A stretch of DNA of 63,328 nucleotides, filler included, from an uncultured Methanosarcinales archaeon (lineage in GTDB: Archaea; Nanobdellota; Nanobdellia; Woesearchaeales; CAZXZL01): NCBI GenBank assembly GCA_964645415.1. It is 3 parts of 3 records of this genome, joined end to end, with 100 filler letters (N's around TTAATTAATTAA, not from the genome) between each part and the next. Parts side by side here need not be neighbours in the genome. Positions count along the whole stretch, not along the records: positions 26,193 to 49,824 come from CAZXZL010000011.1; 2 more parts are not named here. One strand, given 5' to 3'. The position numbers were made by a program. Shown here piece by piece: positions 39,001-42,000 of the stretch (within the stretch, counting starts at the first letter, position 1; every line of letters starts with the position of its first letter).

Positions 39001-42000
39001 TATGCCGTATTCCTGGTTCATTAAAAAGATATTTATGGATTAGAGAAAATGATGTAGTACTTGTAGAACCTTGGGAAATGCAAGGTGATGAGAAAGGAGA
39101 TGTTGTTTATAAGTACAAAAAGAACCAAGTAAATTATCTAAAAAGAAAAGGCTATTTATCAGACCTTGATGAATTTAGAGAATTTTAATATTTTTTATTG
39201 TTATTATAATTTTATTTTTATCAAATGAAAAAAGAAGTATATCCTCCAAGAGAAGATTCTTTTCTTTTAAAAAGAAATGTAAAAAAATTAGCATGTGGTA
39301 AAGTTCTTGATGTAGGTTGTGGAAGTGGAATACAATCTAAAGCAGCCTTAAAATCAAAAAAAACAAAAAAAGTTATTTCTGTTGATCTAAATGAAAATGC
39401 ATTAAAAGAAACTTCTAAAATTAATGATAAAAGATTAAAAACAATAAAATCTAATTTATTTAGCTCATTAAAAAAAGAGCATGAAAATTCATTTGATTTA
39501 ATTCTATTTAATCCACCATATCTACCAAAATCTAATCTAGACCATCATCTTGATGAAGGAACAAGATTAGCAACAGTTGGAGGGATTGAAGGAAATGAAG
39601 TAATAAATCGATTTATAACAGAATTAAATAGATTTTTAAAAAATGATGGAAAATGTTTACTTTTGTACTCTAGCAAATCAAATCCGATTCAAATTGAAAA
39701 ATTTATGGACTATAATCTTCTTAACTGGAAGCTAATTGATAGTGAAAAGATGGAAGATGATGAAGAGTTATATGTTGTTTTAATAAAAAAAAGTAATCTC
39801 TTAAAAAGAATTAACAAAAAACATTATGTAAAATTTATTTCTAAAGGAAAACACTCTTACATATTTTTAACAGAAGATAAAAAATTAATTAAAGTGACAA
39901 ATGGAGTTTCAAAAGGATCAATAAAAACAGAATTTAATATACTTAAAGCAATAGAAAATTCAAAGTTCAAAGAAAAAATAAATTATCCTAAACCTTATTA
40001 TTTAGATGAAAAAAATCAATTTTTAATAAGAGAATATATTAGCGGAATTGAATTCAATAAGAAAATAGAAAAGATAGATAAAATAAAAACAAAAAAGATA
40101 TTAAAACAAATATTAACACAAGCTTTTTATTTAGATAAAATAGGAATAAACAAAAAAGAGATGCATAGAATCACAAAAAATGTTATAATTACAAAAAATA
40201 ACATTCCTTACTTAATTGACTTTGAAAGATCTAGAAAAACTAATAATCCAAAAAATGTAACACAATTTATTTCTTTTTTATATAAATTTATTAAAAAAGA
40301 TATAATTAAAATTAATGAAAAAGAACTAATTAAAATTGCAAAAAAATATTCAAATAAGCCAGACATAAAATATATTAATGAAATATTAGAAAAATGGTAA
40401 AAATGGAAAAAGAAAAAATTACTTTTGGTTGTAATATATTTTCAAATAAAAAAGTATTAAGTTGTTCTTTTGGTTTGACTAAATCAGAATTAGAACTATT
40501 GAAAACAGTAATAGAAAATAAAAAAGGAATCTCCGTAAAAGAAATATCAAGCTTTTTAGATAAAGGAAGAACAACGATTCAAAAAACAATTAAATCATTA
40601 TTAGACAAAAAATTAATCAAAAGAAAGCAAGTAAATTTAAAAAAAGGATTTGCATATATTTATTATCCATTAAATAAAGAAGATTATATTAAAATATTTG
40701 ACAAAAAACTAAAAAAGATAAAAAATAACATTCATAAAGAGATAAATAACTGGTATAGTTAAAAGAATTAAAAAATAAAGCTCATTCTTCTTCGAAACTT
40801 AGAAAAAAAACTTTGTTTTTTTCAAGGTGAGAAATCTTTTGATTTCACTAACCTTTTAAATCTTTGATTTAAACAACATAAAAAACTCTTTGTTTTTCTT
40901 CGCTTTGAAAACTTTGTTTTCAATAGTTAGAAAATCTATGATTTTAGTCACTTTTAAATTTCTAATTTAATAAGTTCTAAACTTTAGTTTAGTAATATGT
41001 ATTCGTATTCAGCTAAAGGTAGTAGAAATTTTTTCTTTCATGTGTAGAAATCAAAATCATCTTGTAGTATTCTGTCGGAATTTTATAATCTTTTTGTCTT
41101 TATTTGATAGATTTTTATTTTATATAAGTAAAAATCGACAGATTTTTTATTTTCATATATTTTTAATTCTTATAAAATTCCTCTAAATTGCAATTTTATT
41201 TTTTTTATGTTAAACTAGAATAAACCAATTTTAAAAAAGAGATAACTGAGTATTATCATCATCACTATCATTTTTATCATAATCAATACTTTTATCACTA
41301 GAATTATTTAGTTTCCCTTCTTGACTAATTCTATCATTTAATTCATTAAACCTTCCACTATCATAATAACTAAAAAGAAACCTATCTAAAAAATCACCAT
41401 TTTCACAATCACCTAAAAAAAGATACTTCTTTTTTGATCTTTCTAACATTAATTTAGAATAATATTCCAGCTTATTTTCATACTCAGAAGACATTTTTAA
41501 ATCAATATCATTTTTAGAATCAACTCTATAATTTTGTGACTTTGGAACTTTTAATTTTCTTTTATAATCATTTTTATTATATTTAATCATATGTTTTTGA
41601 TGAATGTTATTATAACCTCTTTTAATAATATTTTTCAAATTTTCCTTAAAATCACTATTTTTTATATTTATATCATCAAAATTTGCTCTCCAAATACCAG
41701 AATAAAACATCAACTTCTCCCAATCACTAAGAGAATTTTTAACAACATCTCTCAAATAACTTGAAGAATCTCCTCTAAAATCACAAACTTGACTAGAAAT
41801 ATTATTATATCTTTTTTGTAGTTCATGTCTCCTAGACTTATAAAAACCTCTTTTATCTTTCTTAATATCTTCACAAGAAATAACACCATAAAGAGGTTGT
41901 TTCAATTCATCTTTATTAATATAACTTATACTTTTATCAATATCAAGATAACTTTTTAAAATATTTTCTAAATCATATTTAAGATATGAAAAACCTGATA

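What a model noticed while it worked through the whole genome (the two positions that open the first line are those of the whole stretch)
39225..40400. Release-factor methyltransferase Mtq2 fused to a RIO/Bud32-like mini-kinase domain, in a genome without Trm112
g00366 (391 aa) joins an Mtq2-type glutamine methyltransferase (NPPY motif; 41% identical to M. jannaschii Mtq2) to a ~205-residue C-terminal domain with the fold of the small RIO/Bud32-type atypical kinases, and no Trm112, the obligatory activator of Mtq2 in eukaryotes and Haloferax, is detectable in the genome. Boldest reading: the kinase-like domain takes over the role of Trm112 as built-in activating/targeting subunit, or couples methylation of the GGQ glutamine of aRF1 to a phosphorylation or nucleotide-sensing step on the ribosome. 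New: this domain architecture is confined to Nanobdellota and has not been described.
Evidence so far: swissprot.tsv: residues 4-150 match Mtq2 of M. jannaschii (41% id, E 5e-22), H. volcanii (33%) and human HEMK2 (31%); NPPY at 96; these references are 197-214 aa. Pfam at E<=0.01 on residues 180-391: only ABC1 atypical-kinase domain, E 5e-4, under the cut-off. Atlas search on residues 185-391: by features the nearest clusters are 186-239-aa archaeal proteins named Ser/Thr kinase with RIO1 on 14-52% of members (scores 0.95-0.97); by structure TM 0.76-0.84 to stand-alone 193-255-aa RIO1/Pkinase-type proteins, and TM 0.82-0.88 to two clusters of 393-397-aa proteins (62 and 57 members, Archaea 92-100%, commonest Nanobdellota/Woesearchaeota) that carry MTS/PrmA methyltransferase families, i.e. 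th [...]
(Added by a program. Inside this text positions count along the whole contig: they may not be those of the stretch shown here. "Call 12" and the like, gene names such as g00115 and contig names such as C1 are that model's own, and its searches are not shown. The text may have been shortened before it was handed on; [...] marks where a part breaks off. The agent that wrote the report below was given it as the finding of a first reader that could run no searches.)

Follow-up and report, generated by a model that had tools for sequence, protein, structure and literature searches.

The report
Release-factor methyltransferase fused to tRNA kinase
This archaeal gene joins the enzyme that methylates the translation release factor to a member of the recently discovered ArkI family of tRNA kinases, a pairing that is conserved across one order of tiny DPANN archaea and does not seem to have been described.

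Summary
The 391-aa ORF at 39225-40400 (+) is real. Residues 1-189 are an Mtq2/HemK2 glutamine methyltransferase: TIGR00537 gives 113.8 bits against a cut-off of 87, NPPY sits at 96-99, and it is the only Mtq2 in the genome. The C-terminal domain has a kinase fold, but it is not RIO or Bud32. It belongs to the ArkI family (COG2112/AQ578), the ATP-dependent kinase that puts a 2'-phosphate on U47 of tRNA. A family profile matches the solved ArkI structures at E 1e-32 and 3e-18. These structures also take ranks 1-4 in the fold search.

No Trm112 is detectable in this genome. That absence does not make the kinase domain a Trm112 substitute. Genuine Trm112 co-occurs with the fusion in at least 15 related genomes, often 2-4 kb away. 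Trm112 is sparse across the whole phylum, and published work already describes Trm112-less archaea that keep Mtq2.

In a 201-genome sample of the phylum, the fusion (81 genomes) or an adjacent Mtq2-arkI gene pair occurs only in the window's own order. Elsewhere the two genes are unlinked.

Most likely this is a bifunctional enzyme that modifies the translation apparatus. It is a new architecture built from known parts. Interest is moderate.

The parts
39225..40400 (+). Whole gene, 391 aa + stop: Mtq2/HemK2 methyltransferase fused to an ArkI-family kinase
   Evidence: ORF. There are 674 homologues at E<=1e-3, and 118 of the 120 listed are 368-468 aa and cover 89-99% of the query. AF2 model: pLDDT 92, pTM 0.85.
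39225..39791 (+). Residues 1-189: Mtq2/HemK2-type class I SAM methyltransferase domain
   Evidence: TIGR00537 113.8 bits against a cut-off of 87. PDB sequence hits are only HEMK2/N6AMT1 and E. cuniculi Mtq2. Foldseek TMt 0.77-0.86. It is the only Mtq2 match in the genome; the next best scores 30.7 bits.
39510..39521 (+). NPPY substrate-amide binding motif (residues 96-99)
   Evidence: Invariant in 36 of 36 aligned fusions. Read directly.
39813..40397 (+). Residues about 197-391: ArkI-family (COG2112/AQ578) RNA kinase domain
   Evidence: Family profile against PDB: G. acetivorans Ark1 E 1.1e-32, TkArkI E 2.8e-18, next hit 6.5e-7. The single sequence's best PDB hit is GaArk1 at E 6e-6. Foldseek ranks 1-4 are ArkI structures, TMt 0.84-0.85, rmsd 2.5 A. 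It is the only ArkI-family match in the genome: 184.6 bits, next 17.
39837..39860 (+). P-loop, residues 205-212 (ISKGKHSY). K207/G208 correspond to TkArkI K32/G33
   Evidence: G208 is invariant. Mapping to TkArkI. The window has H210 and S211 where at least 85% of the family has R and G.
39891..39893 (+). K223, the ATP-binding lysine (TkArkI K51). E236 (39930-39932) is the alphaC glutamate (TkArkI E65)
   Evidence: Both invariant in A1. Mapping. Mutant data for TkArkI in PMC9095486.
40152..40181 (+). Catalytic loop, residues 310-319 (KKEMHRITKN). K310, E312 and K318 align with TkArkI H130, Q132 and K137
   Evidence: K310 and E312 are invariant and K318 is at least 90% conserved. Alignment to 7vnx and 8yv4/5. 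GaArk1 has the same K-x-E type of loop. The window deviates at E311K, P316I and H319N.
40218..40229 (+). D-F-E-R metal-binding motif, residues 332-335 (DFE in place of DFG; D332 = TkArkI D149)
   Evidence: Invariant. DFE is the ArkI hallmark according to PMC9095486.
40254..40265 (+). N-V-T-Q motif, residues 344-347 (N344 and T346 = TkArkI N160 and T162, subdomain IX)
   Evidence: N344, T346 and Q347 are invariant. Mapping.
40347..40355 (+). Y375-S376-N377, the position of the ArkI 'YKR' RNA-binding motif. Y is kept and K is replaced by S in this copy
   Evidence: Y375 is invariant, and K is present in at least 85% of the other fusions. K201A strongly lowers TkArkI activity.
38853..39188 (+). 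Context: aIF1A gene, ending 36 nt upstream on the same strand
   Evidence: PF01176 E 1.5e-21. This neighbour was not found in the 25 related loci compared.
40394..40762 (+). Context: 122-aa winged-helix (TrmB/MarR-like) gene that overlaps the stop of the fusion by 7 nt
   Evidence: PF01978 E 1.2e-8. BLAST at E<=1e-4 found no match in the 25 related loci.

Best explanation
The gene encodes one polypeptide with two enzymes of translation-apparatus maturation.

- N-terminal domain: the genome's only Mtq2/HemK2 SAM-dependent methyltransferase. It is expected to methylate the glutamine of the GGQ motif of aRF1.
- C-terminal domain: the genome's only ArkI-family kinase. It is expected to use ATP to place a 2'-phosphate on U47 in the variable loop of tRNAs.

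The fusion arose within one order of Nanobdellota, whose members' proteins are labelled Woesearchaeota by their sources. In that order Mtq2 and arkI are either adjacent co-directional genes or fused. In the other orders of the class they are unlinked.

I read the two domains as catalytically independent. They would be joined for co-expression or co-localisation on two tRNA-shaped clients, aRF1 and tRNA. The kinase domain is not a Trm112 surrogate.

Shown: the family membership of both domains, the conserved catalytic residues, the phyletic and synteny pattern, and the absence of Trm112 from this assembly.

Inferred: both activities, both substrates, and the independence of the two domains.
For: Mtq2 domain:
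- It passes TIGR00537 and has NPPY.
- All 7 PDB sequence hits are HEMK2 or Mtq2.
- It is the sole Mtq2 in the genome.
- aRF1 is present at 394.9 bits and carries GGQ.
- Of the 81 genomes with a fused frame, 72 have exactly one Mtq2 match, 8 have two and 1 has none.

ArkI domain:
- The family profile gives E 1.1e-32 to GaArk1 and 2.8e-18 to TkArkI.
- The top four fold matches are ArkI structures; RIO1 comes only at rank 5 with TMt 0.61.
- The residues that match TkArkI K32, G33, K51, E65, K137, D149, N160, T162 and Y200 are conserved. H130 and Q132 are replaced by the family-invariant K310 and E312, as in GaArk1 (mutant data in PMC9095486).
- DFE stands in place of DFG.
- Substrates exist: 13 of the 35 tRNAs found have U47 in a 5-nt variable loop.
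- ArkI-family matches occur in 193 of 201 sampled genomes of the phylum.

Linkage:
- Among the 150 listed ArkI matches, 81 of 117 same-order genomes are fused and 0 of 33 other-order genomes are.
- For stand-alone ArkI genes, Mtq2 lies directly upstream or within 1.2 kb in 8 of 10 same-order loci and in 0 of 10 other-order loci.

Against a Trm112-substitute role.
Against: - No activity was measured.
- The only biochemically characterised ArkI that I could read about (TkArkI) has an H-G-Q catalytic loop. This family has K-x-E. For that subtype I have only the PDB title 'RNA kinase Ark1' with ATP and found no paper.
- The window's copy is the most divergent of the 36 aligned. It differs at 11 of 37 conserved C-domain columns (the next most divergent differs at 6 of 38). 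The changes include S for the K of the YK(R) motif and N for H319. It also sits on the longest branch of the tree (2.17 against a median of 0.53). This particular kinase domain may be weakened.
- No KptA/Tpt1 eraser is present.
- Order-wide linkage followed by fusion hints at a closer functional coupling than 'independent activities' explains.
- ArkI is also fused to Ogt-like domains in relatives, so fusion alone is weak evidence of shared function.
- The domain tree is unresolved (32 of 53 branches open), so a single origin of the fusion is not shown.
Confidence: 0.6

Rival explanations
1. Built-in Trm112 surrogate. The kinase-like domain packs on the Mtq2 domain and stabilises or activates it, or targets it to aRF1. 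This would make Trm112 dispensable.
For: No Trm112 is found in this genome. 71 of 81 fused genomes also lack a detectable small Trm112. The full-length model has a high pTM (0.85) for a two-domain protein, which suggests a defined inter-domain arrangement.
Against: - Trm112 co-occurs with the fusion in at least 15 genomes and often lies 2-4 kb away.
- Trm112 is as rare where Mtq2 is not fused: 3 of 32 and 7 of 32 genomes.
- Trm112-less archaea with Mtq2 are already known.
- The domain keeps a full set of ArkI catalytic and RNA-binding residues across the family. A mere scaffold would not need them.
- I could not inspect model coordinates, so where the domains touch is unknown.
Confidence: 0.08
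2. One substrate, two steps. Both domains act on the same tRNA. The kinase makes Up47, and the methyltransferase, drifted away from aRF1, methylates a neighbouring base or the new phosphate. WbdD phosphorylates and then methylates its substrate in this way.
For: Order-wide adjacency followed by fusion. Foldseek aligns the full model to the bifunctional kinase-methyltransferase WbdD (E 8.6e-13). ArkI is repeatedly fused or adjacent to methyl-transfer proteins: an Ogt-like domain, and a third methyltransferase domain in P0062.
Against: - The N-domain is a full-score Mtq2 orthologue with NPPY, a motif of N-methylation rather than phosphate methylation. That chemistry is established knowledge and was not tested here.
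- It is the only Mtq2 in 72 of 81 fused genomes. Repurposing it would leave aRF1 unmethylated.
- The WbdD match has rmsd 10-12 A and 15-17% identity, so only the domain types are shared.
- Where Trm112 is present it lies next to the gene. That fits a classical Mtq2.
Confidence: 0.07
3. In this particular genome the ArkI domain is a decaying or non-catalytic remnant that serves at most as an RNA- or aRF1-binding appendage. The family as a whole remains active.
For: The window's copy differs at 11 of 37 conserved C-domain columns, the most in the set. The changes include P-loop R210H and G211S, H319N, and K376S in the YK(R) motif. It has the longest branch in the tree. No KptA is present.
Against: - The frame is intact.
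- K223, E236, K310, E312, K318, D332, N344, T346 and Y375 are all kept.
- The N-domain is similarly divergent (12 of 56 columns). That fits genome-wide fast evolution at 25% G+C rather than domain-specific decay.
- It is the genome's only ArkI, in a phylum where 193 of 201 genomes keep one.
Confidence: 0.12
4. Assembly or gene-calling artefact that joins two neighbouring genes.
For: In 32 of 117 same-order genomes the two parts are separate frames. The genome is a 79-contig bin.
Against: The window has one uninterrupted frame. The same fused frame occurs in 81 independent genomes and in hundreds of protein clusters from several sources.
Confidence: 0.01

Closest known systems
ArkI (archaeal RNA kinase, COG2112/AQ578 family): T. 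kodakarensis TkArkI (PDB 7vnx) and G. acetivorans Ark1 (8yv4/8yv5)
   Same: Same family by profile (E 1e-32 and 3e-18) and by fold (ranks 1-4). It shares DFE instead of DFG, the N-x-T motif, the Y of the YKR helix, the small size of about 200 aa, and the absence of an activation segment.
   Different: Here the domain is the C-terminal half of a fusion. The catalytic loop is of the K-x-E type, as in GaArk1, and not the H-G-Q of TkArkI. The window's copy has S at the K of YKR. The hosts are DPANN archaea, not the mainly thermophilic hosts stressed in PMC9095486.
Mtq2-Trm112 / HEMK2(N6AMT1)-TRMT112 release-factor glutamine methyltransferase
   Same: Orthologous catalytic domain: TIGR00537 passed, NPPY present, TMt 0.77-0.86 to 3q87_B, 6ped_A and 6kmr_B.
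   Different: No Trm112 in this genome. The known enzymes are stand-alone proteins of about 200 aa (170-233 aa in the PDB chains). This one carries a kinase domain.
WbdD, the bifunctional kinase-methyltransferase of E. coli O9a O-antigen termination (PDB 4azs, 4ax8)
   Same: One chain holds a class I methyltransferase domain and a small protein-kinase-like domain. Foldseek aligns both domains (E 8.6e-13).
   Different: The match has rmsd 10-12 A and 15-17% identity. The methyltransferase family is different and the substrate is a polysaccharide. WbdD's chemistry is recalled, not taken from a call. This is an analogy only.
RIO1/RIO2 and Bud32/PRPK atypical kinases (including the M. jannaschii Kae1-Bud32 fusion, 3en9)
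   Same: Same superfamily and similar size. They rank 5-50 in the fold search. Kae1-Bud32 is a precedent for a mini-kinase fused to a tRNA-modification enzyme.
   Different: The family models fail. RIO1 gives no hit at E<=0.1, and Bud32 gives 26-33 bits against cut-offs of 125-199. The genome has separate Rio1, Rio2-like and Bud32 genes.

Membership tests
Mtq2/HemK2 (TIGR00537, release-factor N5-glutamine methyltransferase) | Score over the curated family cut-off | tested here: met
   113.8 bits against 87; 115.1 bits in the genome scan.
Mtq2/HemK2 | NPPY motif in the active site | tested here: met
   Residues 96-99, invariant in 36 of 36.
Mtq2/HemK2 | Fold of solved Mtq2/HEMK2 | tested here: met
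   Foldseek E 8.5e-15 to 6.8e-13, TMt 0.77-0.86, rmsd 2.6-2.8 A.
Mtq2/HemK2 | Substrate present: aRF1 with GGQ | tested here: met
   aRF1 at C5, 394.9 bits. GGQ read.
Mtq2/HemK2 | Trm112 partner encoded | tested here: not met
   None in this genome. It is present in at least 15 relatives that have the fusion. The literature shows Trm112 is not universal in archaea.
Mtq2/HemK2 | Methylation of the GGQ glutamine | not testable with these tools
   Needs an enzyme assay.
ArkI (COG2112/AQ578 RNA kinase) | Sequence similarity to experimentally solved ArkI proteins | tested here: met
   Profile E 1.1e-32 (GaArk1) and 2.8e-18 (TkArkI), with the next hit at 6.5e-7. The single sequence gives E 6e-6 to GaArk1 as its best PDB hit. 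No Pfam model exists for the family: 19 of 19 stand-alone homologues scanned had no family at E<=1e-5.
ArkI | ArkI fold | tested here: met
   Ranks 1-4, TMt 0.84-0.85 to GaArk1 and 0.64 to TkArkI.
ArkI | DFE in place of DFG, with the metal-binding Asp | tested here: met
   D332-F-E-R is invariant. The feature is described in PMC9095486.
ArkI | ATP-site Lys, alphaC Glu and P-loop K-G | tested here: met
   K223, E236 and K207/G208.
ArkI | H-G-Q catalytic loop as in TkArkI | tested here: inconclusive
   K310 and E312 align with H130 and Q132. GaArk1 has the same substitution. K318 corresponds to K137. The activity of this loop type is known to me only from a PDB title.
ArkI | Subdomain IX N-x-T | tested here: met
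   N344 and T346 are invariant.
ArkI | YKR motif on the last long helix | tested here: inconclusive
   Y375 is kept. K is S in the window but is present in at least 85% of the other fusions.
ArkI | 2'-phosphorylation of tRNA U47 | not testable with these tools
   U47 is present in 13 of 35 tRNAs. That only shows a possible substrate.
RIO kinases (PF01163) | Match to the family model | tested here: not met
   No match on C11 at E<=0.1, while Rio1 on C37 scores 164.6 bits.
Bud32 (TIGR03724, PRK14879) | Score over the cut-off | tested here: not met
   26-33 bits against cut-offs of 125-199. The true Bud32 on C30 scores 190.4 bits.

The most novel reading that the evidence does not exclude
The order-wide linkage and fusion of Mtq2 with ArkI reflect a coupled two-step reaction on one tRNA-shaped client. 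One possibility is that the ArkI domain phosphorylates U47 and the NPPY methyltransferase then adds a methyl group to that tRNA or to the new phosphate, giving a tRNA mark not yet known. The other is that the ArkI domain's tRNA-core binding surface holds the tRNA mimic aRF1 for methylation, which would let most of these genomes do without Trm112.
Probability: 0.12. Interest if true: 0.8.

Novelty: new variant of a known kind. Interest (0 to 1): 0.45.

Why it matters
ArkI and its product Up47 were described in 2022 as a device of mainly thermophilic archaea for stabilising tRNA. Three things here add to that picture.

- An ArkI-family gene is present in 193 of 201 sampled genomes of a DPANN phylum.
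- In one order it is physically joined to the release-factor methyltransferase.
- The closest solved relative has a different catalytic loop from TkArkI.

This gives tRNA-modification and DPANN researchers a concrete and cheap experiment: does the fusion phosphorylate tRNA, methylate aRF1, or both, and does either activity depend on the other?

It also corrects database names. The fused proteins are labelled only 'HemK2/MTQ2 methyltransferase' or 'methyltransferase', and the one stand-alone homologue with a source name is 'hypothetical protein'.

Finally, it removes an attractive but unsupported idea, that the kinase domain replaces Trm112.

Tried and rejected
- Complex prediction with the fused protein of G132 plus its own Trm112, both given as alignments: no verdict (score 0.00). 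It counts neither for nor against binding.
- The search for related loci with alignment A2 in genome contigs, meant to obtain named organisms: the tool reported that no stretch was conserved enough. The loop type of the biochemically tested ArkI homologues (M. fervens, N. viennensis and others) therefore remains unchecked.
- Maximum-likelihood tree of 56 ArkI domains, meant to decide between a single origin and repeated fusion or fission: unresolved. 32 of 53 inner branches are open, and only the quick search finished.
- Search for conserved neighbours of the window's gene (aIF1A, the 2-hydroxyacid dehydrogenase, the wHTH gene, the 300-aa ORF) in 25 related loci: only the UvrD-like helicase recurs, in L029 at 40% identity. 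The aIF1A adjacency is therefore not a conserved feature. I dropped the idea that the kinase descends from the archaeal aIF1A-Rio1 gene pair (that pairing is recalled, not from a call).
- Bud32 identity (KEOPS), suggested by weak NCBIfam hits: rejected, because a full-score Bud32 exists elsewhere in the genome.
- The weak Trm112 candidate at C22:9370-9627 (14.3 bits): a Zn ribbon without the C-terminal strand motif that all 20 aligned Trm112 share. Rejected.
- The search of earlier findings by place, by sequence and by words: nothing.
- Paper search for the G. acetivorans Ark1 structure: none held.
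Full report
**1. The observation**

The window holds an uninterrupted 391-codon frame at 39225-40400 on the + strand. 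It lies on contig C11 of a 961-kb, 79-contig genome whose completeness is estimated at 100%. G+C is about 25%.

The frame is not a chance ORF. A word-seeded search found 674 homologues at E<=1e-3 among 8000 scored candidates. Of the 120 listed, 118 are 368-468 aa long and cover 89-99% of the query. Where sources give names, they are 'HemK2/MTQ2 family protein methyltransferase' or 'methyltransferase', from Woesearchaeota, Nanoarchaeia or Nanoarchaeota.

**2. The N-terminal domain**

- Residues 1-189 score 113.8 bits on TIGR00537 (HemK2/MTQ2), whose cut-off is 87.
- NPPY at 96-99 is invariant in 36 aligned fusions.
- All seven PDB sequences matched at E<=1e-5 are human HEMK2/N6AMT1 (3e-11) or E. 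cuniculi Mtq2.
- The AF2 model (pLDDT 92, pTM 0.85) superposes on these chains with TMt 0.77-0.86.
- It is the only Mtq2 in the genome; the next hit scores 30.7 bits.
- Its expected substrate is encoded: aRF1 scores 394.9 bits and carries GGQ.

**3. The C-terminal domain is ArkI, not RIO or Bud32**

Pfam gives only sub-threshold ABC1 and Pkinase hits. NCBIfam gives Bud32 models at 26-33 bits against cut-offs of 125-199. The genome has a full-score Bud32 (190.4 bits), a Rio1 (164.6 bits) and a Rio2-like gene elsewhere. The RIO1 model does not hit this domain at E<=0.1.

An exhaustive phmmer search of 1.84 billion representatives with the domain alone found 757 proteins at E<=1e-3 and 256 at E<=1e-10. 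They are a mixture of fusions of about 360-420 aa and stand-alone proteins of about 185-260 aa.

Fusions and stand-alones share one set of motifs:
- a K-G-K-R-G P-loop
- the ATP lysine
- an N-E-A glutamate
- L-D
- N-K-E-E-M-H-x-P-x-K-H
- I-D-F-E-R
- P-K-N-V-T-Q-F
- Y-K-K

A profile of the window's domain plus 37 stand-alones matches two PDB entries far above all others. G. acetivorans 'RNA kinase Ark1' (8yv4/8yv5) scores E 1.1e-32 and TkArkI (7vnx) scores E 2.8e-18. The next hit, LanKC, scores 6.5e-7. The window's domain alone also has GaArk1 as its best PDB hit, at E 6e-6.

A separate model of the domain (pLDDT 90, pTM 0.87) has the ArkI structures at Foldseek ranks 1-4 (TMt 0.84-0.85, rmsd 2.5 A to GaArk1). 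RIO1, PRPK/Bud32 and Rio2 follow, with TMt 0.47-0.61 and 14-17% identity. The specific family is ArkI.

The family has no Pfam model: 19 of 19 stand-alone homologues scanned had no family at E<=1e-5.

**4. What ArkI is, and how this domain compares**

From Ohira et al. 2022 (PMC9095486; passages read):
- ArkI (COG2112, formerly the AQ578 family) is the ATP-dependent kinase that forms 2'-phosphouridine at position 47 of tRNA.
- HRD is replaced by HGQ, and DFG by DFE.
- Alanine substitutions at K32, G33, K51, E65, H130, Q132, K137, D149, N160, T162 and K201 (of a YKR motif) reduce or abolish activity.

Wolff et al. 2023 (PMC10159004; passages read) found Up47 in the mesophile M. maripaludis as well.

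Mapping through the HMMER alignment to 7vnx:

| TkArkI residue | Window residue |
|---|---|
| K32 / G33 | K207 / G208 |
| K51 | K223 |
| E65 | E236 |
| K137 | K318 |
| D149 | D332 |
| N160 | N344 |
| T162 | T346 |
| Y200 | Y375 |

All of these are conserved. H130 and Q132 align with K310 and E312, which are invariant in this family and are also present in GaArk1.

The window's copy deviates at 11 of 37 conserved C-domain columns, the most of the 36 sequences (the next deviates at 6 of 38). The changes include R210H, G211S, H319N, and K376S at the K of the YK(R) motif. It also sits on the longest branch of the domain tree. The N-domain is similarly divergent, at 12 of 56 columns, so this looks like fast evolution of the whole gene.

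Other facts about this genome:
- The domain is its only ArkI-family sequence (184.6 bits, next 17).
- 13 of its 35 detected tRNAs have U47 in a 5-nt variable loop.
- No KptA/Tpt1 eraser was found.

**5. Distribution and synteny**

The sample was 201 genomes of the phylum, drawn evenly by the tool, all at least 93% complete.
- ArkI-family matches at E<=1e-8 occur in 193.
- Mtq2 matches at E<=1e-15 occur in 193, of which 186 are over the cut-off.

Of 216 ArkI matches, 150 were listed, one per genome. I classed them by the length of the stop-to-stop frame:

| Group | Fused (>=360 aa) | Stand-alone (<=260 aa) | Ambiguous |
|---|---|---|---|
| Same order as the window | 81 | 32 | 4 |
| Other orders of the class | 0 | 32 | 1 |

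I checked the fused class two ways. Coordinates of the ArkI and Mtq2 matches agree for examples such as G009, G024 and G073. Domain HMMs confirm it on four fetched loci.

Of the 81 fused genomes, 72 have exactly one Mtq2 match, 8 have two and 1 has none.

For 20 stand-alone ArkI loci fetched with 5-kb flanks:
- In the same order, Mtq2 lies on the same strand directly upstream or overlapping in 6 of 10, and 0.7-1.2 kb away in 2 more.
- In the other orders it lies nearby in 0 of 10.

In other orders the two genes sit on different contigs or more than 150 kb apart (G163, G147, G143, G184, G112).

The linkage of Mtq2 and arkI, by adjacency or by fusion, is therefore a trait of one order. The domain tree is too poorly resolved to say whether fusion happened once.

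**6. Trm112**

PF03966 finds nothing credible in the window's genome. Across the phylum, many hits at or just over its 22-bit cut-off are TFIIB zinc ribbons: model positions 9-34 in frames of about 310 aa.

Genuine Trm112 shows as frames of 48-102 aa with 29-51 bits over nearly the whole model. These are listed for 31 genomes. I built an HMM from 17 of them. It recovered 10 of 10 held-out Trm112 at 48-86 bits. Over all 14,735 frames of the window's genome it gave at best 14.3 bits, to a Zn ribbon that lacks the C-terminal strand motif. The absence from this assembly is as well supported as sequence search allows.

The absence does not single out the fusion:
- Genuine Trm112 occurs in 10 of 81 fused genomes, 3 of 32 same-order stand-alone genomes and 7 of 32 other-order genomes.
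- Five further genomes (G028, G037, G136, G149, G159) have Mtq2 in frames of 377-418 aa with Trm112 on the same contig.
- In G132, G135, G110 and G021 the fused gene (382-424 aa) and Trm112 (49-78 aa, 72-82 bits) lie 2.2-2.9 kb apart, with TFB next to Trm112.

The literature already records archaea that have no Trm112 but keep Mtq2 and Trm11.

**7. Interpretation**

The best-supported reading is a bifunctional protein. One half is a classical Mtq2, the sole copy, and where Trm112 exists it is encoded next to it. The other half is an ArkI-type tRNA 2'-kinase, also the sole copy, in a phylum where almost every genome keeps one.

Why these two should be linked in one order is open. Co-expression of two maturation enzymes that act on tRNA-shaped clients is the conservative answer. 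A coupled reaction is the bold one.

ArkI is also found fused to an Ogt-like alkyltransferase domain (4 of 15 odd-length homologues scanned, with P-C-H-R kept in the three sequences I read). In one protein it carries a third methyltransferase domain. The kinase domain is therefore a frequent fusion partner in this lineage, which tempers any inference drawn from fusion alone.

**8. Novelty**

Both domains belong to known families. I did not find the combination in print. The ArkI paper's main text has no occurrence of 'methyltransferase' or 'fusion'. Its seven text supplements have no occurrence of the six terms I searched, and one scanned PDF could not be read.

I rate it a new variant of a known kind, of moderate interest.

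Noticed in passing
Proteins P0153, P0174, P0235, P0173 (hits); stand-alone neighbours at L022:3511-3849 (-) and L028:6175-6561 (+): A second ArkI architecture: an N-terminal ArkI domain fused to a C-terminal Ogt/MGMT 'DNA_binding_1' domain (PF01035, E 1.6e-19 to 4e-27). The P-C-H-R active-site motif is kept in the three sequences I read. NCBI names one cluster member methylated-DNA--protein-cysteine methyltransferase, from Woesearchaeota. Ogt-like genes also lie near stand-alone ArkI genes in two loci.
   Followed up: partly
201-genome sample of the phylum: ArkI-family genes occur in 193 of 201 sampled genomes of this DPANN phylum, although the family was described as mainly thermophile-associated. 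Their catalytic loop is of the K-x-E type, as in G. acetivorans Ark1, not the H-G-Q of TkArkI.
   Followed up: partly
L031, L032, L034, L036, L037, L038, L040 (other orders of the class): In 7 of 10 other-order loci, stand-alone ArkI sits divergently next to a gene of 583-669 aa. In 6 of the 7 (not L037) a gene of 393-439 aa follows it. Pfam gives no match or only sub-threshold hits (SQHop_cyclase_C, TED). This is a recurrent pair of unknown function.
   Followed up: no
L047-L051, L022 (G132, G135, G110, G021, G005, G035): Trm112 (49-78 aa) lies next to the TFB gene, and this pair lies 2-3 kb from Mtq2-ArkI. At its curated cut-off, PF03966 also hits the TFIIB zinc ribbon in dozens of genomes (about 22-25 bits, model positions 9-34). 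This is a trap for automated Trm112 calls.
   Followed up: partly
G175:C1:960916-961041, G025:C33:4523-4657, G070:C7:3795-3932, G034:C3:18147-18287, G149:C3:40841-40978, G073:C2:113363-113488, G023:C71:17515-17649, G123:C6:4637-4774: Near-full-length Trm112 matches (about 22-37 bits) inside frames of 330-383 aa. These may be the Trm112-methyltransferase fusions described for some archaea in PMC5372719.
   Followed up: no
Protein P0062 (563 aa) and P0133 (496 aa): Longer variants of the fusion. P0062 is Mtq2 + ArkI + a third methyltransferase domain (Methyltransf_11, residues 443-520). P0133 carries an N-terminal extension of about 110 aa.
   Followed up: no
window 42196-44259 (-): A 687-aa UvrD-like helicase. 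Its homologue in L029 (40% identity over 692 columns) has RQC and HRDC domains and lies convergent to ArkI. It is the only neighbour of the fusion that recurs in the 25 related loci compared.
   Followed up: partly
window 26093-26192 and beyond about 49824: The window is a concatenation of contigs. C10 covers 1-26092, then a spacer, then C11 (23,632 bp) from 26193. The rest must be a further contig, so long-range synteny across these joints means nothing.
   Followed up: partly
G000:C22:9370-9627 (+): A small Zn-ribbon ORF (C-P-D-C ... C-R-F-C) is the best but insignificant Trm112-like hit in this genome (14.3 bits). It lacks the C-terminal strand motif. Its function is unknown.
   Followed up: partly
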